From: Eledone cirrhosa
Lineage: Eukaryota
DNA: 64,000 nt
Direction: 5' to 3'
NCBI GenBank assembly: GCA_964016885.1
Contig: OZ024760.1
Span: forward strand, 17,732,001 to 17,796,000
The stretch's first letter is position 1. Every line of letters starts with the position of its first letter. A program made the position numbers and the translations under genes. The notes beneath the pieces were generated by a model. The model was not told the DNA's origin. It searched no databases and saw only the letters and a program-made list of their open reading frames with translations. Of the stretch, positions 19,122 through 62,208 are shown piece after piece.

Positions 19122-19343
19122 GCGGTGCTGTGACCGGGAAGACCACTAATCGTGGGAGTACTCAATGCATAGGGGGCCTCAGAGTGGGTGTATGTATGTA
19201 TGTATGTATGTATGTATGTATGTATGTATGTATGTATATAAAGAAAGTAAGGTAAGATACCAGGTGGACCATAATGCACCAGAGTACTCGATCTACCTGT
19301 CGAAACGGCCGGAGCTCTACCGTCGGGGTCCTGACTCTTTTCC

Positions 19344-19377
<34 letters not shown>

Positions 19378-26804: not shown

Positions 26805-26884
26805 GTTATATATTATATATATAGTTATATATTATATATATAGCTATATATTATATATATAGCTATATATTATATATATAGCTA

Positions 26885-26949
<65 letters not shown>

Positions 26950-27323
26950 TATACTCACACATATATATGTATGCCACTGGCAGTTCTACAATAAAAGTGA
27001 AGTGGGGGGAAAGGTTTTTCTTTTTCTCTTTACCATCTGGATGTCATTCTCTCTCTCTGCTTCTCTCTTCTGTCTATCCATCTCTCTCTCTCCCTCCCTC
27101 TGTTGTTTATTCTTTTTTTTCTTCAAATTTTTGTTTGTCAAAATTAGGGTCCGCCCTCAAGGCCGAAGTGTCTTCGGCGCCGGGAAATAGGGTAACCAGA
27201 ATATATCTATGTCTACGTTCTTTGTTGCAATTATCTATAAAAGTCTTTTTTTGTTTCTCATTTCAGGTGAATTCATTGTACTCCTTGAGTAACGCAAACG
27301 TTGTCATCTTAAAACAGGCAAAA

Positions 27324-27508
27324 ATGGTCGAATCAACCACATTAGTTAACCAGACATGGTGGTATAATCCAACCGTGGACATCCATCCTCATTGGGCTAA
27401 GTTTGATCCTATCCCAGATGCTGTCTACTATTCTGTTGGTATCTTCATTGGTGTTGTTGGTATTATTGGAATCGGCGGTAATGGCATTGTCATTTACCTT
27501 TTCTCAAA
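27324..27508 (+). CDS. RHO: Rhodopsin coding exon 1 (exon begins at 27267 with 5' UTR)
   Basis: Acceptor tttcag|G at 27266/27267; AAAATGG start; donor AA|gtaagt at 27509 (phase 2). Confidence 0.97.
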
Positions 27509-28563
27509 GTAAGTATTAACTCCCTTTGAAAAAAAAAACAAAAAAAAAACATCGAAAATTTCCCCTCCCCGCCACGGTTCTATGATGCAAAACTTTGTTT
27601 TAAAGTATATTTATCTATTTATTATTTATCTGGCGCTAGGAGCATAACTTAACAAATGTTATCAAGAGAGAAAGGATATTTTAAAACTACCAGTTTGAGA
27701 GAAAGATTGGACATTTTAAAACTACAAGTTTGAGAGAAAGATTGGACATTTTAAAACTACAAGTTTGAGAGAAAGATTGGACATTTTAAAACTACAAGTT
27801 TGAGAGAAAGATTGGACATTTTAAAACTACAAGTTTGAGAGAAAGATTGGACATTTTAAAACTACAAGTTTGAGAGAAAGATTGGACATTTTAAAACTAC
27901 AAGTTTGAGAGAAAGATTGGACATTTTAAAACTACAAGTTTGAGAGAAAGATTGGACATTTTAAAACTACAAGTTTGAGAGAAAGATTGGACATTTTAAA
28001 ACTACAAGTTTGAGAGAAAGATTGGACATTTTAAAACTACAAGTTTGAGAGAAAGATTGGACATTTTAAAACTACAAGTTTGAGAGAGAAAGATAGGACA
28101 TTTTAAAACTACCAGTTTGCGAGAGAGAGGACATTTTAAAACTACCAGTTTGCGAGAGAGAGGACATTTTAAAACTACCAGTTTGCGAAAGAGAGGACAT
28201 TTTAAAACTACCAGTTTGCGAGAGAGAGGTCATTTTAAAACTACCAGTTTGAGAGAGAGAGAAAGGACATTTTAAAACTACCAGTTTGCGAGAGAGGACA
28301 TATTATAACTACCAGTTTGAAAGGGAGAGAGAGGACATTTTAAAACTGGTCTCTAAAAAAAACTACCAGTTTGCTCTATAATCATCCTTATATTTTAGCT
28401 TTCTTGCGTTTCTCACTCTCTCTCTTGGTTTTGTTTCTTAATTATTCGAGGTATCAAATACCTTTCTCAGTTTGCCATGGCTTACCAGCTCTACACAGAT
28501 GTTTAAACTGATTAAATAAATAAATAACGAAGAATGTTCTTTGGTATATATATAATATATATA

Positions 28564-28594
<31 letters not shown>

Positions 28595-31500
28595 ATCCCA
28601 GGTTCAATCGGGGGTAACCACAGTAAGTAAGGTGCTCAATACATATAGTATATTCCATTTTCTTACAAAAAAAAATGTGTGAAACGCAGCAAGGCGCGGG
28701 TAATTCGGCTAGTGTATGTATATATATATATATATATATATGTAAATTTTACAAAATTATTTATATTTACTTCCTGTTTCCTTTCAGAACGAAATCTCTA
28801 CAGACCCCGGCTAACATGTTTATCATCAACCTCGCTATGTCTGACTTAAGTTTCTCAGCTATTAATGGATTTCCGCTTAAAACGATATCAGCGTTTATGA
28901 AAAAGTGGATTTTCGGTAAAGTTGGTAAGTATATATAAATAAATATATTCATATTTTCAAAGTGAATTTTTTGTCAACCAAACTCTTAATTCTTTTTGTT
29001 AATTACGAAGAATACTTATGAAATATATATATATATATGTAGGCCTAGGCATGGTTCTGGATTCAGTCCAACTTTGTAACACCTTGGACGGGTGTCTTCT
29101 ACTATAACATCTGTAAACTTTCATCTACCTAGGTGCCAAATAGTGACATACAATTTGGAACATACATATCTCTAGATAGAACTGCCACTTCTCCGAATTG
29201 AGAGATCACAGCTCCGATATTATGGACTTGTGGTTAGAATGTCTCAGGAAAGAATCACTGGACATATTTGTAGCTCAGAGATCAGAAAGTCACTTCAGGT
29301 AGAGCCACTACTTCTCAAAATTGAGAGATCACAGCTCCGATATTATGGACTTGTGGTTAGAATGTCTCAGGAAAGAATCGCTTGACAGATTTGTAGCTTG
29401 GAGATCAGACAATGACTCCAGGTAGAGCCACTACTTCTCTGAATTGAGAGATTACAGCTCCGATATCATGAGCATGTGGTTAGAATGTTTCAGGAAAGAA
29501 TTACTGGATAGATTTTACGGGCAAAGCCAACTGGTAGGAGACCCAGGGGTAGACGAATAACTTCCATGAGCTTGGCTGGTCTCGCTTGGGGATCCAGCTG
29601 GATCAGTTGGAGCCAGTTGCTTCTGACAGGACCTGCTGGAAGGAGTGTTTGAGGACTCTGTCCCCAAGACCCTCTCAGGAATAAGTGGGCGAAGAAGACG
29701 AGAAGATACAATAATTTTTATATATTAAGATAATGTATATAACATCTTAACTATAAGAAATGAGTGCGGGACTGCGTCCAGAATATTTTTTTTATCCCGT
29801 TTGTATATTACATAATTTATGAACATATATTTCCGTCGCTAATTTTCTCCTAATGCAGTTTATATATAATATCGTCTTTTTTTAATGTATCATGGATTAC
29901 TTTACTGATTACAGAAGAGAGTATAACACAAACTCTCTTCAATTTGTGTGGATATTGTCAATTACGAATTTATTTGACATATCATATCTACATGCATGTA
30001 TATTTGCGTATAATATCAATATACACACTACACATGACAGCAGAAAACCACACGAAGGGTATTTTTTCTGCTAGTAATAGTTAATATATTTTTTGTTATA
30101 TACTTTCTGTATGGTGGTTTGGCAGTATCGGTAGAGGGTCTGACACCATGCTTTGCAGCAAAAGAGTTACGGCCCTTTATGGTCTGAGTTCAAATCCCGC
30201 CGAGGTTAACTTTGCCTTTCCTGCTTACGAGGTCGATAAAATAAAGCACCAGTAATACACAGGGATAATTGCTGGCCTTGTGCTAAAAGTAGAAACACTT
30301 ATTAATTCAGTCCCCTCCTCCTTTTAATCTCTTCAACATTCCTTTCCATGTATCACACATTATCTTATTTAAAATATCTTAATTAAAATATACATCTAAT
30401 TTTTAAAATTTTCTTATTTAAAAATATCTTATTTTTAAATATATATTTTCCATATAATTAATTCAGCCCTCGTATCCTTTAAATCTCCAATCGTTGAAAT
30501 CCTTCAGCATTCCTTTCCATGTATCAAACGTTATCTTATATTCATCTTATTTTAAAATATTCTTTTTCTCTCTATTTCTAGCTTGTCAACTTTATGGTTT
30601 GCTGGGCGGTATCTTCGGATTCATGTCAATCAACACCATGGCTATGATTTCCATTGATCGTTACAATGTAATCGGTAGACCTATGGCGGCATCCAAGAAA
30701 ATGTCGCATAGAAGGGCTTTCCTTATGATTATCTTTGTGTGGATGTGGTCCATTGTTTGGGCAGTCGGACCAGTCTTCAACTGGGGTGCATACGTCCCTG
30801 AAGGAATCCTCACATCTTGCTCTTTTGATTATCTCTCTACCGATTCCAGTACCAGATCTTTCATCTTGTGCATGTACTTCTGCGGTTTCATGTTACCCAT
30901 AATTATCATCGCCTTCTGTTACTTCAACATTGTCATGTCTGTATCCAACCACGAAAAAGAGATGGCCGCCATGGCAAAGAGGTTGAACGCCAAAGAATTG
31001 CGTAAGGCACAGGCTGGCCAGAGCGCTGAAATGAAATTGGCCAAAATTTCAATGGTGATTATTACCCAATTCATGCTCTCCTGGTCTCCATACGCCATCA
31101 TTGCTCTTCTTGCACAGTTTGGCCCTGCTGAATGGGTTACTCCATATGCAGCTGAATTGCCTGTACTGTTTGCTAAAGCTTCAGCTATCCACAACCCGAT
31201 TGTCTACTCTGTCTCTCATCCTAAATTCAGAGAGGCCATCCAAAACACATTCCCCTGGTTGCTGACTTGTTGTCAATTCAATGAGAAAGAATGCGAAGAT
31301 GCTAACGATGCCGAGGAAGAGGTCGTAGCATCCGAGGGCGGCGGCGGTGAATCCGCTGATGCTGCACAAATGAAAGAGATGATGGCTATGATGCAGAAAA
31401 TGCAGGCACAACAAGCTGCCTACCAACCACCACCACCACCCCAGGGCTACCCACCCCAGGGCTACCCACCACAGGGCTACCCACCACAGGGCGCATACCC

Positions 31501-31630
31501 ACCACAGGCCGCATACCCACCCCAAGGCTACCCACCCCAAGGTTACCCACCCCAAGGAGCACCACCCCAAGTAGAGGCCCCACAAGGAGCACCACCGCAA
31601 GGAGTCGACAACCAAGCTTACCAAGCTTGA
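27324..31630 (+). CDS. RHO: Rhodopsin (rhabdomeric Gq-coupled opsin), 3 coding exons 27324-27508, 28788-28924, 30582-31630; 456 aa
   Basis: Spliced ORF MVESTTLVNQTWWYNPTVDIHPHW...DNQAYQA*. GT-AG introns with compatible phases (185+137+1049=1371 nt). DRY motif, C109/C187, E181, retinal-binding K306 in FAKASAIHNPIVY, r-opsin HPKFR motif and the cephalopod PPQGY tail are all present. Confidence 0.99.
27679..28372. repeat. 35-bp minisatellite (~20 copies) in a rhodopsin intron
   Basis: Unit TTTTAAAACTACAAGTTTGAGAGAAAGATTGGACA; homogeneous 5' part, divergent 3' part. Confidence 0.97.
28788..28924 (+). CDS. RHO: Rhodopsin coding exon 2
   Basis: ctttcag|A ACG AAA TCT (TKSLQTPANMFIINLAMSDL...WIFGKV); donor G|gtaagt at 28925 (phase 1). 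Confidence 0.98.
29150..29705 (+). mobile_element. RTE-like LINE 3' end with a triplicated ~125-bp segment, in a rhodopsin intron
   Basis: IERSQLRYYGLVVRMSQERI-type motif three times, then PTGRRPRGR; related piece on - at ~2395-2525. Confidence 0.75.
30582..31630 (+). CDS. RHO: Rhodopsin coding exon 3 (TM3 to C-terminus)
   Basis: tttctag|CT TGT CAA; encodes TM3-TM7, K306 and the proline-rich tail; ends TGA. Confidence 0.99.
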
Positions 31631-33892: not shown

Positions 33893-33921
<29 letters not shown>

Positions 33922-33923
<2 letters not shown>

Positions 33924-34133
33924 GGAAAATGTTTAACTCCGACGGCAGAGCTCAAGCCGTTTCGACGGCTATTTCTGAACTTAATCTTAATTCAAGTCCA
34001 GAAATAGCCGTCGAAACGGCTTGAGCTCTGCTGTCGGGGTTTAACATTTTCCTATTACCCACTCTACTACCCTAAGTATTGAGTACTCTGGTGCGTTATG
34101 GTCCATCTGGTTCCTTACCACACTTCCTTCGTT
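33922..34133. mobile_element. Truncated, inverted copy of the 37304-38590 family (others at 43551-43757, 44289-44448, 52668-52872; variants 19240-19345, 43062-43125)
   Basis: Shared tail ...CCTATTACCCACTCTACTACC...CCTTCGTT plus a palindrome centred in hammerhead stem II; (TA)n at one or both ends. Confidence 0.75.
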
Positions 34134-34330
34134 ATATATATATATATATATATATATATGCTTATACATGCATATATCGATATGAAAGATGTTGCACAGT
34201 GGAGTGTATATACTACATATATTATTAATATTTAAATTTGCAATGTTTACCTGTACAAATATTTCGAATAGCCAAAATTTCTGTAAATATATATACGGCG
34301 AGACTACTACTACTACTACTACTTTTACGG

Positions 34331-35526: not shown

Positions 35527-37069
35527 GTATGTATATGTATATATATATATATGTATATATATATATGTGTATGTATATATATATATATAGTGTGTGTATT
35601 TATGTATGTATATAAATATTGTCCACGATAAGATCAATGGATCGAAGTTCTTTACATATAGACCTCAGGGGTTTCTACCCCATTTTCGTTACAATCGCTG
35701 TATTACATTTGCAAATTTCTGGAAATACATTTTTACAGCACCAACTTAACGACTTCTTTTTAAATATTTTCTTGCTTTCTTGAATTTTTCTAAATGTGTT
35801 TTCTTTGGCTATTGGCATATGTGTATATGTATGTGTGTATGCGTACGTGTGTGTATGTATGTGTGTGTGTTTATTTGTATGTGTGTGTATGCATGTATAT
35901 GTCTGAGTATGTATGCATGCATGTACGTGCGTATGTCTATCAGCCTATATACGTATGTATGTGTCCATGAATGTGAATACGTATGTGTGTATTCATGTAT
36001 GTATGTGTATGTCTGTATGTATGTGTATGTGTCTCTGTGTATGTATGGATGCATCTACGTGTGTATATCTGTCTGTGTCTATATACGTATGTATGTCTAT
36101 GTATGTATGTATGTATGTATGTATGTATGTATGTATGTATGTGTCTATAAATGTGTATACGTATGGGCGTATGCATGTATGTGTTTGTATGTATGTGTGT
36201 GTATGTATGTGTGTCTATGTGTGTGTGACTACATATGTATGTCTATATGTGTGTATCTGTATGTATGTGTCTGTATGTATGTGTCTGTATGTATGTGTCT
36301 GTATGTATGTGTCTGTATGTATGTGTCTATGTGTGAGTGTATGTATGTGTATGTATGCATTGTTATTACTGTTTAATCCAGCCTCAAGCCCATGGTGTGG
36401 CTACCCAAGACATTTTAAAACAATTTAAGACACTGGTTGTTACTTAACATACTTCCTTGATACGAAGTATTTCAACTTGGTACGTAAGATCTTACGAAGG
36501 TCTGAGCTCTTACAAGGAACAATTGCTACACACCACAGAACAAAGTTACGTGGGAAAACACAAACAGATACTATACAAGTATTATACAGAATTCCCAAGA
36601 AACATAGGTGATTCATTATAGAAGCAACACTTACATCGCAATACAACACCAAGATTAATATACAGGCTGCAGTACAAGGCTAACCAAACAAACATCATAC
36701 AGACGTCTTGACTTATGACGTTGAAATCGAACGGTGAATTTTCAGGAGCCAACTTCCAGTAAGAAAGCAATTACATTAGTGGAAGAAGAAAGAACAGCAT
36801 AAAATGTTACTTCAGTACATTACTGGTACTTTATTTTATCGACCCCGTAAGGATGATTTGCAAAGTTAACCTCAGCAGAATTTGAACTCAGACCGTAAAG
36901 AACCGTAACTTTATGCTGCAAAGCATAAAAGTGACAGTAAAAATAGACCAACAACACTCTACGTACTAATGATGAGACTGTGAAAGTCTAAAAACGTCGA
37001 TTGAATTATGAATTTAGGAACTTTGCAGTTAATTACATAATACATATAATACACACACACATACGTATT

Positions 37070-37112
<43 letters not shown>

Positions 37113-37317
37113 AGGGTAAAATTCCCGAGATCCATGGACGAGTTCTTTCCAGCGGTCTCTGTCCCTCATCATCGATGCCATATCCTGCGTCTCCAAGAGA
37201 CCTGTGTCTGTCCTTAGGGTATCAACATGTCAACCTCGGTCTCCCTCTTCTAGTGTATATACATCTATTTATATATTTGCATATATATAACTATATATAT
37301 ATATAGGAACCAGTAAG

Positions 37318-37411
37318 ACCCCGACAGCTGAGCTCAAGCCGTTTCGACGGCTAATTCTGGACTAAATGAAAATTTATCCTGGTATTTAAATAGCCGATCT
37401 TCTCAAGGGGT
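37318..37411 (-). ncRNA. Inverted second copy of the U3-A8 type I hammerhead
   Basis: Reverse complement of 38404-38497, within the left arm of the long inverted repeat. Confidence 0.75.
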
Positions 37412-38403
37412 AATTCCATATATGGTCAAAGTGATTGTCAAAAATCAGTAGTAATTCTGTGGTTGCAAATTAGTAGGGGAGATGGTGACTAAACCTGCCA
37501 GTAGGAGAAAGAGGGGAGGGGGTGGAGTAGACCCAATCAAGCGTTGGTAGTGCCAGCTACAGCTGGGCATGAGGTCAAAGAAGATACAGGGGAGGGGGAG
37601 GGGGAGGAAGTCGGAACGGTAGGTAGAACAATGGGGGGTAGAAATAGGTAGAACAATGGGGGGTAGAAATAGGTAGAAATAGAAAGGGGAGAAATTTTAT
37701 TTCTCCGTATTCTACCTTTATTTCGTACGAACTTTCATGTAGCTTGTTTTAGATCTTTTAGAGTTAGCATTAGTATATATTTTTCCCGGGACTCAGAATT
37801 ATTATCTCGTACAAGTTCACTTTGCTGCACTGGGTCGTTGCTGGCCCGGGATGGAAACCTTTATTGTTTATTTCGTGGTAGTCTCTTTAGTATTTTGGCC
37901 CCTTTTGTTGACCCGTCACCGTATCATTTACGTACTTATACCTCTTAAAAGGGTCCTTGCCTTATCCGTCACACCTAGTTCTCTTACTTATTTCCTTATT
38001 TATTTATTTATTTATTTATTTACTTCTTTCTTTCTTTCTTTATTTTATTCTCGCCTAACAATAGCCTGACACCTAGGTCGTTGAATTTAATTTACTTTAC
38101 TTTTTCTTTTTTTTTTCTTTTTCTTTACACTTATTTGCTTTTCTTCACTCTCAGTATTTTTTCTTTCCTATTTCTACCCCCCATTGTTCTACCTACCGTT
38201 CCGACTTCCTCCCCCTCCCCCTCCCCTGTATCTTCTTTGACCTCATGCCCAGCTGTAGCTGGCACTACCAACGCTTGATTGGGTCTACTCCACCCCCTCC
38301 CCTCTTTCTCCTACTGGCAGGTTTAGTCACCATCTCCCCTACTAATTTGCAACCACAGAATTACTACTGATTTTTGACAATCACTTTGACCATATATGGA
38401 ATT

Positions 38404-38497
38404 ACCCCTTGAGAAGATCGGCTATTTAAATACCAGGATAAATTTTCATTTAGTCCAGAATTAGCCGTCGAAACGGCTTGAGCTCAGCTGTCGGGGT
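38404..38497 (+). ncRNA. Type I hammerhead ribozyme, U3-A8 variant core
   Basis: Stem I ACCCC/GGGGT; core TTGAGAA; stem II GA(T)CGGCTA/TAGCCGTC; GAAA; stem III ACGGCT/AGCTGT; GTC cleavage triplet ending at 38492. Confidence 0.75.
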
Positions 38498-38588
38498 CTT
38501 ACTGGTTCCTATTACCCACTCTACTACCTCAAGTATTGAGTACTTTGGTGCGTTATGGTCCACCTGGTTCCTTACCACATTTCCTTCG

Positions 38589-38630
<42 letters not shown>

Positions 38631-39199: not shown

Positions 39200-40242
39200 A
39201 ATACGAAGGAGTGCTGTAAAGTTCCTCGCTTGATCGTTACTACAGAGGCCTTTTGAAGGCCAACATTCCGAATTCTTTTTACAGGGCTTAGAAATACCGA
39301 AGGACCGCTGCAAAAAGTGTGTGAATCTGAAAGGGGAATATTTCCTTATTTATATTCCGTAAACCAACCACTAACATGCCCTTAATACCAGTATAGAGGA
39401 GACAAGCTCTATCAAATTTCAGATGTCATATTACGCGGTTTCTGCATAATAATGGTTCCTTATATAGGCACAAAGCCAACGATTTTAGGGGGGGGGGGTC
39501 GATTATATCGACCCCAGTACAATACTAGTACTTTATTTTACTGACCCTGTAAGGATGAAATGCAAAGTTAACCTCGGCGGGATTTGAACTTAGAACCTAA
39601 AGGGCCTAAAGCACCGCAGAGCAGTTTCTGCATAATAATAAGCAATACTTGGCAGTATCGGTAGAGGGTCGGACGCTACGCTTTGCAGCATAGAGTTACG
39701 GTTCTTTACGGTCTGAGTTCAAATCCCGCCGAGGTTAACTTTGAAAATCATCCTTATGGGGTCGATAAAATAAAGTACCAGTAATGTACTGAAATAATTG
39801 CTGGCCTTGTGCCAAAAATAGAAACAATTATTATTATCCGTAGCGACTACGACTCCATTTGTGTAATAATCTTTACCAACCAGACCCATACCCGGGACTA
39901 ACAGATAAATTTGTTTAAAAACGGTAGAATGTTATCACACCTAACAAACCGAAATCTCTGCAAACCTCGTTAGCCTTATCCAAACCTGCCCTGAACCATG
40001 TGAAATTACAAATACTTATCAAAGGCTTAAAACATAACCTACTTTTAAAATGTTTAATACGAAAGTAAGATCCCAAAGAAATAAAGCAAGGAGACTCAAA
40101 TATCATATTTAACCAACAATGAAAAGTCCCAACAAAACTAAATGTTAGTTTTGAAGTTAAATTAGATAAATATATGTTTAAATATAAAATTACTAACTAG
40201 AAATATCTTAAATCAATTCAAGTAAAGGTTAACCAAATTTAA

Positions 40243-40436: not shown

Positions 40437-42596
40437 TTAAAGGCTTTTAAACAGATTTGTATAAACGAAATAAATATTGAAATATATTCTAAACTTTTAA
40501 ACTGTACAAATATATAGAATCTAAATAAATTCATTAAAAAAAATGTATACACGAAACAAACATTATTTAAATGAACCAAAATTAAAAATTATCCTAAATA
40601 TTTGAACCAAATTATCAATAAATAGATTAATTAAATAAATAAAACAAATGAAATTTTAAAATGAGTCAAAATTAATAATGAAATCCACTCATCTTAATTT
40701 CTCCGTGCTTCTCTTCAACTGACCGAAACTAAACTGACTTTTGGCGGAAGTAGAATCAGACTGCCCACTTCCGTCTTTGACAAAAGAGTTTACCTGATGC
40801 TTTAGAGACAATCAAGCTACCGAGTTAGCCACACGCTAGAAAGGGCGGTGAATTGGCAGAATCGGTAGAGCGTCGGACAACTTGCTCCGCGACACAGAAT
40901 CACGGCCTTTTACGTTCTGAGTTCAAGTCTTATCGAGGTTAGTTTTGCCTTTCATCCTTACGGGACCGATAAAATAAAGTACCAGTAATGCACTGGGTCG
41001 ATTTAATCGACTTTCCCCGCCCCTAAAATTATTGGCCGTGTGCAACTCAGAAACCAATATATAATTTCTGAGAGTAAAAATTTTTGATATCTTTCTAGTC
41101 TATTGGGAAGTCCTCTTCTGTGTATATACACCGGGTGTTCCCTCAAAATGTATACATTTTTGGGGAGACCCTCTGTGTGTATATATAACAATCAAAGAGT
41201 GTTTAAGAACATTTAATTACTAACGATCATTTCATCCAAGCACTTGCAATTGGATAATATTTAATATTACCCACATTTTATATATATAAAATGAGAAAAT
41301 ATATAAATACCACCATATTACTTGGACAGTCGGCTTCCTAATGATTTCTCCGAAATGAAACAGTTCTAGTCCTGTAGAAGCCTTTCTACATTATATATTT
41401 CTATATTATATATATATATATTAGTCGGACGCCATGCTTTGACGCATAGAGTTACGGCCGTTGCCATTCTGAGTTCAAATCCCGCCGAGATTAACTTTGC
41501 TTTTCATCTTTACGGGGGTCGATAAAATAAAGTACCAGTAATGCACTGGGTAATTGCTGACCTTGTGCCAAAAGTAGAAACAATTGTTATTATTATGAGT
41601 TCAAATCCCGCCGAGGTTGACCTTTGCCTTTCATCCTTACGGGGTCGATAAAATAAAATACCAGTAATGCACTGGGTATTTGCTGGCCTTGTGCCTAAAG
41701 TAGAAAGAATTATTATTATTATTATTAATGAGCGCTCGGAGGCCATATTGAGTTGATTTAGGTTTATTTAAAACTCCGTTTCACATATTTCACTGAAGAC
41801 TATTAATCATGATAGCCTGAGCTCATATATATATATATATATGTATATATATACATACATACACACATGTTCGGTGTCGTGGTAGCCATCATCAACAGTA
41901 AATTTTGTTGCTGTTCACCCAGACTTATGTTGTTCTTTTTTTTTTCTTAAATATAGGTTGGCCGGAAGTATTTATAAAACAATCTCCGCTCCACTCTCAA
42001 CTCTGCTATCATCTTCTCACAAAGCTTTTTATTAATACATAACATCTACAGATTTATTTAGTTATATATATATATATATTTATTTTTATAAACCACCAGT
42101 AGGAAAATGTAGAAGAGAAAGGAGAGGAAAGGAGGTGGGAAAAGTAAACATTCGTTGAATAGGCTTTGAACGTCTGCTTTGAAAGGACAAAGGACAGCCA
42201 TACCAGAAGATATCCAGCCCTTTCCCTTTAATCACAATAGCAGTAAATTAAAACATGGGGTTTATCCTTTGTGTCCCCTGCTCCACACTTTCTCTTATTT
42301 CATGTCTTAAACATAATATGTACAACAGTGTCGTCATCCCCCCCCCCCCCCCCCCCCCACACACACACAACGGTAAACGCTCTAAATTAGGGCAAAAGGG
42401 ACTGTATATATATATTGGTATATTGGTTATAAACATTGGTCCGCAAACCAAAGATGTGGGTTCGTGTCCATTGTACGTCAACACTCAGCCTTTTTATTTT
42501 CCATTCAGAGAGATTTTTTAAAAATCCCAACTAACAGGCTAATTTTATTTAGTCAAATACGGCGTATATGCATGTAACTACACACACACACACACT

Positions 42597-42972: not shown

Positions 42973-43156
42973 CGAATGGAAACACTTGTAAGCACACGGA
43001 ATAAATTACCTTTTTATGATGTCTACCTGTTATTATTCATTCTTTATATATATATTTATATATAGGAAAAGAGTCAGGACCCCGATGGCTGAGCCCCGGC
43101 CGTTTCGACAGCTGCTAGATCTGAACTAAGCCCCCAGTATTATAGACCGGCGGGAA

Positions 43157-43468: not shown

Positions 43469-43552
<84 letters not shown>

Positions 43553-43753
43553 ACGAAGGAAATGTGGTAAGGAACCAGGTGGACCATAACGCACCAAAGT
43601 ACTCAATACTTGAGGTAGTAGAGTGGGTAATAGGAACCAGTAAGACCCCGACAGCTGAGCTCAAGCCGTTTCGACGGCTAATTCTGGACTGAACTTGAGT
43701 CCAGAATTAGCCGTCGAAACGGCTTGAGCTCAGCTGTCGGGGTCTTACTGGTT

Positions 43754-43788
<35 letters not shown>

Positions 43789-43899: not shown

Positions 43900-43954
43900 A
43901 CTGCCTGAAGAGGTCACAGCCAAAGATGGCTGTCACTGAAATATATATAGCAGT
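43900..43954 (+). ncRNA. Minimal type I hammerhead ribozyme
   Basis: ACTGC-CTGAAGA-GGTCACAGCCA aaga TGGCTGTCACT-GAAA-TATATA-TA-GCAGT, followed directly by AATAAA. Confidence 0.75.
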
Positions 43955-44256: not shown

Positions 44257-44291
<35 letters not shown>

Positions 44292-44444
44292 CGAAGGAAA
44301 TGTGGTAAGGAACCAGGTGGACCATAACGCACCAAAGTACTCAATACTTAGGGTAGTAGAGTGGGTAATAGGTACAAGTAAGACCCCGAGGGCTGAATTA
44401 GCCGTCGAAACGGCTTGAGCTCAGCCGTCGGGGTCTTACTTGTT

Positions 44445-44487
<43 letters not shown>

Positions 44488-51478: not shown

Positions 51479-62208
<10,730 letters not shown>

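What the first reader, a model, noticed from the sequence alone, without database searches (positions are those of the whole stretch)
37304..38590. Penelope-like inverted-repeat element carrying two hammerheads with a U3-A8 covariant core
Seen: both ~345-bp inverted arms contain a complete type I hammerhead fold in which the canonical CUGAnGA core reads UUGAGAA. Stem III pairing is largely kept among the truncated copies (ACGGCT/AGCTGT, ACGGCT/AGCCGT, ACGG/CCGT) and its loop holds a GAGCTC palindrome. Established: C3-G8 is a tertiary pair, U3-A8 is a compensatory swap, and Penelope-like elements carry type I hammerheads in often-inverted pLTRs. Inference: an unannotated cephalopod PLE or retrozyme family that searches for the canonical core would miss.
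Basis: partly seen in the sequence, partly recalled or inferred. Interest (0 to 1): 0.75.

Follow-up and report, generated by a model that had tools for sequence, protein, structure and literature searches.

The report
Penelope retroelement with a drifting hammerhead
This mirror-image repeat is a recent, shortened insertion of an active Penelope-type jumping gene in an octopus-type genome; its predicted self-cutting RNA has a known swap in its core, and the family's copies suggest the RNA is sometimes cut in the cell and that the element kept jumping while that core pair was mismatched.

Summary
In detail: two identical 346-nt inverted arms each hold a type I hammerhead fold with a U3-A8 core. 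It is a 5'-truncated, two-armed insertion into (TA)n of a young, autonomous Penelope-like element (3,543-nt unit, 719-aa telomerase-like RT plus GIY-YIG, Hydra-clade motifs), not a retrozyme. U3-A8 hammerheads and opposed pairs in such elements are already in print (PMC4209133), and this scan noted the two-ended architecture before on other DNA of this genome.

New here: (1) the 3-8 pair does not covary. Genome-wide counts are U3-A8 5,248, C3·A8 1,577, U3·G8 67, C3-G8 14, and an ORF tree puts C3·A8 on the lineage's trunk between older and younger U3 copies. (2) Insertion ends pile up at the predicted cut site, about threefold over a neighbouring position. (3) Most short arms stop about 40 nt upstream, a likely transcription start, but long arms read through it (1 of 32 stop), which fits a circular or multimeric template. 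Cleavage itself is untested and no RNA data were available.

The parts
37292..37305 (.). left (TA)n target; no target duplication can be resolved
   Evidence: sequence
37303..37648 (-). inverted arm, 346 nt, ending outward at the short 3' end (about 20 nt after the cut site, no tail)
37318..37411 (-). left type I hammerhead fold, U3 at 37406, predicted cut after C37323
37649..37695 (.). junction: 25-nt slippage repeat of the arm's end plus short purine-rich filler
   Evidence: (D16)
37696..38590 (+). direct arm: last 895 nt of the element's unit (3' UTR/pLTR), about 98% identical to ORF-bearing tandem copies
38404..38497 (+). right type I hammerhead fold: core UUGAGAA 38409-38415 (U3-A8), long stem II, 6-bp stem III with palindromic loop, predicted cut after C38492
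38448..38459 (+). hotspot where short arms of the family begin (mode A38452); inferred transcription start inside stem II
38513..38590 (+). 78-nt tail between the two fixed 3' ends, present on one arm only
38590..38627 (.). right (TA)n target
   Evidence: sequence

Best explanation
This is a recent 5'-truncated insertion of an autonomous, Hydra-like Penelope element, likely made when the element's enzyme cut a (TA)n repeat and copied its RNA from both DNA ends, and its U3-A8 hammerhead is predicted to be a slow self-cutter that likely makes a unit-length circular template. Shown: arms, fold, family, ORF, two fixed 3' ends, distribution of 5' ends, history of positions 3 and 8. Inferred: (a) copying starts at two sites 20 and about 98 nt downstream of the cut site, one per arm; (b) both arms here cross the cut site, so their template was uncut or re-ligated; (c) transcription starts near A38452, and priming on the 5' copy of the start sites gives the very common mini-insertions; (d) a minority of RNAs are cut after C17 and give arms that run off at +1; (e) cut unit-length RNA is ligated into a circle that gives longer-than-unit arms and tandem arrays; (f) only weak activity is needed, so the 3-8 pair drifted through U·G, U-A and C·A.
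For: Family and ORF: 2,239 exact motif matches, control 0; 3,543-nt tandem units with 784-795-aa open frames; model pLDDT 92.5, best PDB match telomerase RT; the endonuclease aligns to a homolog's Pfam GIY-YIG stretch. Two-ended copying: 101 of 106 classified arm pairs have one short and one tailed end (115 pairs seen, 9 unclassified); both window arms share T38327, seen in 2 of 82 other copies; matches the two start sites and both-strand extension shown in vitro for another PLE (PMC11167929). Fold under selection: stem II pair changes on both sides between subfamilies (G-C 42/A-U 10; U-A 16/G-C 8; U-A 43/A-U 7 of 63 rows), 56 such cells against 30 in shuffles; position 7 takes all four bases. 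Cut footprint: 432 matches for a break at +1 against 99 at +6; 22 of 30 and 29 of 30 sampled were true ends; both arms end at +1 with 1-3 extra bases in 8 of 22, against 0 of 29 at +6. Template: 14 of 17 fresh arms that reach -34 stop at -43 to -34, 1 of 32 long arms stop there on the second pass.
Against: No cleavage assay and no RNA reads. Positions 3 and 8 are independent (C3-G8 14 seen, 20 expected; p 0.23), and in one hammerhead all CUGA-region single and double mutants except the G-C swap had low activity (PMC9901934). HHR mutants did not affect insertion in vitro and no RNA-seq ends were seen at the cut site in the anole element (PMC11167929). Stems I and III are almost invariant, so they say little; RNAalifold did not recover the hammerhead and chose a rival pairing; a hairpin that hides GAAA dominates predictions in three of the older subfamilies. 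The +1 excess rests on one control position, +1 is a G-run that attracts microhomology joins (5 of the 40 truncated cases read), the 0 of 29 was read by eye, and no step at +1 is visible in read depth. An extra cap G was not enriched at the -40 ends (7 of 22). 0 of 39 long arms ended at +1 (1 of the earlier sample did). Long multimeric transcripts would also read through.
Confidence: 0.62

Rival explanations
1. Same element and same two-ended insertion, but cleavage plays no part in transposition: the hammerhead is decayed or incidental, kept as a fold for protein binding or as promoter sequence, and long arms come from linear multimeric transcripts of tandem arrays.
For: C3·A8 held over six successive well-supported trunk branches and 1,577 copies; no 3-8 covariation; insertion in vitro does not need the HHR (PMC11167929); Naiads thrive without canonical HHRs (PMC8557442); every insertion crossing C17 used an intact template.
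Against: Excess of ends at +1 and the both-arms-blunt signature; G10.1-C11.1, U16.1, C17 and stems I/III stay conserved across subfamilies that differ by about 25% in the UTR (core letters were fixed by my patterns and do not count); only 1 of 32 long arms stops at the presumed start, few for short linear multimers.
Confidence: 0.28
2. The inverted arm arises by fold-back of one cDNA on itself (or later inverted duplication), not by a second priming event.
For: Arms are identical and short arms often share their 5' end within a few bases; the junction shows slippage.
Against: The inverted arm ends at a fixed site of its own, 101 of 106 pairs are one short plus one tailed end, either arm can be the longer, and arms overlap unequally (346 against 895 nt here).
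Confidence: 0.08
3. A non-coding retrozyme family.
For: The window copy itself has no ORF, and most copies are short and non-coding.
Against: The sequence is the 3' end of a coding 3.5-kb unit at about 98% identity; no short monomer arrays were seen at this locus.
Confidence: 0.02

Closest known systems
Hydra clade of C-terminal EN+ Penelope-like elements, including Hydra-1_Obim of Octopus bimaculoides (Craig et al. 2021, PMC8557442; sections 3, 11, 12, passages, and supplement Files S1/S2 plus excerpts read)
   Same: Single RT + C-terminal GIY-YIG ORF, DKT, CxCX5C linker, CxxC and CxH, no CCHH, (TA)n targets, type I hammerhead at the 3' end, tandem and inverted structures with a tail.
   Different: Unit 3.54 kb (theirs generally under 3 kb); RWR for RWK; all 26 Hydra rows of File S2 have C3-G8, short stem II and a 3-4 bp stem III, while this one has U3-A8 or C3·A8, a 54-nt stem II arm and a 6-bp stem III. 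Hydra-1_Obim is another family (different N-terminus and a CUGAAGA core, by eye).
U3-A8 hammerheads of Cercyon PLEs in Schistosoma mansoni (Cervera and de la Pena 2014, PMC4209133; parts 1-2 of 4 read, supplement not seen)
   Same: U3-A8 core in a PLE pLTR, opposed pairs on opposite strands, long helix II, palindromic helix III region.
   Different: Theirs are minimal motifs without a real helix III that need dimers; the parts read report no C3·A8 subfamily and no genomic cut-site ends.
PAc, Poseidon PLE of Anolis carolinensis (Frangieh et al. 2024, PMC11167929; parts 1-2 of 4 read)
   Same: Two RT start sites that define the tail, both strands cut and extended, insertion from uncut RNA, protein-assisted HHR.
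   Different: Other clade, canonical C3-G8, ORF starts inside the HHR, 30-40 nt tail; no reads ended at its cut site.
Natural hammerhead core variants (Perreault et al. 2011, PMC3088659; passages and one part of the main section read)
   Same: U3-A8 noted as a natural covariation, active in vitro.
   Different: Isolated examples; the passages read list no mismatched 3·8 families.

Membership tests
EN+ Penelope-like element | Telomerase-like RT | tested here: met
   YRDD at 348; model's best PDB match is TERT, E 8.8e-09. Pfam and PDB sequence searches found no RT.
EN+ Penelope-like element | GIY-YIG endonuclease in the same ORF | tested here: met
   VIY...YIG at 591-608, aligned to the Pfam PF01541 stretch of homolog P0004.
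EN+ Penelope-like element | Tandem or inverted pLTR structure with a tail at one end | tested here: met
EN+ Penelope-like element | Retrotransposition activity | not testable with these tools
   The 150 best RT matches are 98-100% identical, many in full open frames, which suggests recent activity.
Hydra clade | DKT, CxCX5C linker, CxxC and CxH, no CCHH, C-terminal EN | tested here: met
   DKT 117, CNCPDRSIC 572, CNLC 670, CKH 698; one Cys between the GIY and YIG strands.
Hydra clade | RWK motif | tested here: inconclusive
   RWR at 37, a conservative change.
Hydra clade | Insertion into (TA)n | tested here: met
Hydra clade | Canonical (C3-G8) hammerhead and length generally under 3 kb | tested here: not met
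   U3-A8 or C3·A8 core; 3,543-nt unit. Filed as a Hydra-like variant.
Hydra clade | RT groups with Hydra references in a tree | not tested
   Reference proteins were seen only as supplement text; compared by eye.
Type I hammerhead ribozyme | Three helices round the core, open helix I, NUH cut site, G10.1-C11.1 | tested here: met
Type I hammerhead ribozyme | Watson-Crick 3-8 pair | tested here: inconclusive
   Met in this copy (U3-A8); not met in 1,577 C3·A8 relatives.
Type I hammerhead ribozyme | Self-cleavage after position 17 | not testable with these tools
   Indirect only: excess of insertion ends at +1.
Metazoan non-LTR retrozyme | Short non-coding monomer in tandem | tested here: not met
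   The unit is 3.5 kb and coding.

The most novel reading that the evidence does not exclude
The genome holds a fossil record that a Penelope hammerhead cuts in vivo and feeds a circular template for two-ended reverse transcription, and that it kept doing so through thousands of insertions with a C3·A8 mismatch that cripples isolated hammerheads, which would mean the element's protein or a dimer through the palindromic stem III rescues the core.
Probability: 0.22. Interest if true: 0.75.

Novelty: new variant of a known kind. Interest (0 to 1): 0.47.

Why it matters
What hammerheads do in endonuclease-bearing Penelope elements is stated as unclear (PMC8557442), and the one reconstituted element inserted without needing its ribozyme (PMC11167929). 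This family has intact young copies, a dated series of natural core states (U·G, U-A, C·A, U-A) and insertion ends that mark the predicted cut. It offers a direct test of whether cleavage and circles matter for transposition and of how much core mismatch a natural hammerhead tolerates. The U3-A8 swap alone is not news.

Tried and rejected
Rfam scan: no hammerhead family hit. DNA search of the own genome returned nothing because common words are skipped; patterns were used. Pfam and PDB sequence or profile searches did not name the RT. RNA evidence: no RNA holder listed; the contig runs laid are of unrecorded kind and were used only for copy depth and variant share. RNAalifold failed to give the hammerhead. 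A-to-I editing as a rescue of C3·A8 was considered: G8 is not more common beside C3 (14 of 1,591) than beside U3 (67 of 5,315), so no support. A cap-derived G at the -40 ends was not enriched. A pairing between the stem II and stem I internal loops is possible in the youngest subfamily but is not kept in older ones (by eye). Units of one 5-unit array differ by 0-1 substitutions per kb against 3-31 between insertions; this fits a circle but also later local duplication, so it was not counted. One search's pattern missed two subfamilies it was meant to cover. Two papers that bear on 3-8 exchanges and PLE hammerhead dimers (PMC1986816, PMC5785218) were not held and were not read. Searches for a printed C3·A8 PLE family or genomic cut-site ends showed none in listings or passages read; subscription papers, Repbase, Dfam and the supplements of PMC4209133 and PMC11167929 were not seen.

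Full report
Observation. The arms 37303-37648 and 38167-38512 are 346 nt and fully complementary. Each folds as a type I hammerhead with core UUGAGAA and a predicted cut after C38492 or C37323. The strict descriptor gave 2 hits in the window and 0 in 6 shuffled windows. The fold is the minimum-energy structure, though no more stable than shuffles. Rfam has no hit. Stem III with its loop is a near-palindrome that can form an intermolecular duplex (-26.9 kcal/mol against -5.2 for the hairpin).

What it belongs to. A 19-letter core pattern has 2,239 matches in the genome, control 0, often as opposed pairs or at 3,543-nt spacing. Of 18 stretches fetched, several hold open frames of 784-795 aa, and window 37696-38590 is about 98% identical to the 3' end of the unit. 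The 719-aa protein has RWR, DKT, YRDD, CxCX5C, a GIY-YIG-type motif, CxxC and CxH. These are the marks of the Hydra clade in PMC8557442. Its model (pLDDT 92.5) matches telomerase RT best. The 150 best RT matches in the genome are 98-100% identical. In 464 kb not chosen for the motif (window included) there were 30 arms, 4 with a whole core, roughly 100,000-200,000 arms genome-wide by extrapolation. The window's rhodopsin gene marks the host as a cephalopod (identification from my knowledge of the protein).

How this copy was made. The family has two fixed 3' ends, about 20 and 98 nt after the cut site. Of 115 opposed pairs, 101 have one of each kind, 5 have two alike and 9 could not be classed. 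Here the left arm has the short end and the right arm the 78-nt tail. Both arms carry a variant found in 2 of 82 other copies, so one source fed both. This matches two internal start sites and extension of both strands in the anole PLE (PMC11167929). Earlier notes of this scan reached the same reading on other DNA; I tested it here. Both arms cross C17, so the template was intact or re-ligated there (inference).

Is the fold selected? In 63 real copies from eight subfamilies and a sister family, stem II changes on both sides at three pairs, and cells with such changes number 56 against 30 in shuffles (0 of 500 as high). The rows are related, so this is a few events. Stems I and III hardly vary. 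RNAalifold chose another pairing. A hairpin that hides GAAA competes: the hammerhead dominates predictions in the youngest subfamily (stem probabilities 0.73-0.76) but not in subfamilies B, D and E (5-10 copies each).

The 3-8 pair. One pattern with the four combinations gave U3-A8 5,248, C3·A8 1,577, U3·G8 67 and C3-G8 14, of which about 10 are family members. Independence predicts 20 C3-G8 (p 0.23). Contigs of another run show C3 at 27% of depth. A small subfamily is U3·G8 (G8 in 22 of 24, A8 in none); an old one is U3-A8 (40 of 43). A tree of the ORF 3' end for 45 copies (rows with under 290 aligned nt, and young rows under 900, left out; midpoint root beside the three most divergent copies, two of which were found with a G8 pattern) is a ladder: U3, then C3·A8 over six starred trunk branches, then U3 again. 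C3 as one clade is rejected (AU p 3e-05). So the lineage amplified with a mismatch. In PMC9901934 (passages) such mutants, and U3-A8 by implication, had low activity in one hammerhead; PMC3088659 calls U3-A8 active in vitro. A sister family with the same architecture has G8.

Signs of cutting. A pattern for arms that break exactly after C17 has 432 matches, a control 5 nt downstream 99. In the first 30 loci of each, 22 and 29 were true 5' ends, about 317 against 96. In 8 of the 22 both arms stop at +1 with 1-3 extra bases between them; none of the 29 controls showed this at +6 (by eye; p 5e-4), and in 12 of the 30 controls the partner arm stops within or at the end of the C-run that marks the cut. 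Of 20 further hand-picked hits with an older tail type, 18 were true ends, and in one the partner arm carries C3·A8; that tail is shared by C3 and U3 copies, so cutting by C3·A8 is not shown. Caveats: one control position, a G-run that draws microhomology joins, and no step in depth at +1.

The main 5' boundary is elsewhere. In unselected stretches 14 of 22 arms begin 34-43 nt before the cut, mode A38452, and depth rises about 15-fold across 38440-38470. The site resembles an initiator element (motif recalled), and PLE starts lie in the pLTR (PMC6765202), but no cap G excess was found. Long arms ignore it: of 40 stretches upstream of long open frames, 39 aligned; 19 ran past -913, 12 ended at -162 to -755, 1 at -43, none at the cut, 7 downstream. 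That is 1 of 32 against 14 of 17 (p 1e-8). A stall at the fold would act on both passes. A linear RNA primed near its 5' end explains the short arms; a circle, as proposed in PMC4209133, or a long multimer explains the long ones. These loci were chosen for long frames.

Comparison and verdict. U3-A8 in PLE hammerheads and opposed pairs are in print, as are Hydra elements in octopus and many active Penelope families in Octopus vulgaris (PMC13282606, passages). The element works like a Hydra-clade PLE and meets its protein and target features, but not the canonical core or usual length, and I did not place it in a tree with references. It is a new variant of a known kind. The finding as posed is modest; the drift of the core pair and the record of ends make an open question testable. 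Interest 0.47.

Noticed in passing
window 26844-31630 (+): Exons of a cephalopod rhodopsin gene with the proline-rich tail, about 5.7 kb before the element (named from my knowledge).
   Followed up: no
window 53854-60761 (-): Exons of a short-chain dehydrogenase, retinol-dehydrogenase-like by its motifs, facing the rhodopsin gene (named from my knowledge).
   Followed up: no
window 43905-43949 (+) and 14014-13976 (-): Two small canonical C3-G8 hammerhead folds with palindromic helix III, from other families.
   Followed up: no
window 19231-19357, 33910-34143, 43051-43113, 43542-43769, 44280-44460, 52669-52876: Six mini-insertions of the same family, from several subfamilies, all lacking the 5' half of the hammerhead.
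   Followed up: yes
L111, L114, L120, L143, L248 (each near the matched hammerhead): A sister family with the same long stem II and GAGCTC-type loop but G8 (C3-G8 or U3·G8); no related ORF found in the flanks held.
   Followed up: partly
L032-L033-L048 (G000:C1:91.47-91.50 Mb): One insertion whose arm holds five or more near-identical head-to-tail units opposite a tail-less arm.
   Followed up: partly
L248:2045-3049; hits at C440 spaced about 26.4 kb: An RT-like frame with YVDD of another element next to the sister hammerhead, inside what looks like a 26-kb tandem repeat.
   Followed up: no
window 36813-36900, 39515-39840, 40853-41722: Several copies of another short interspersed repeat in both orientations.
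   Followed up: no
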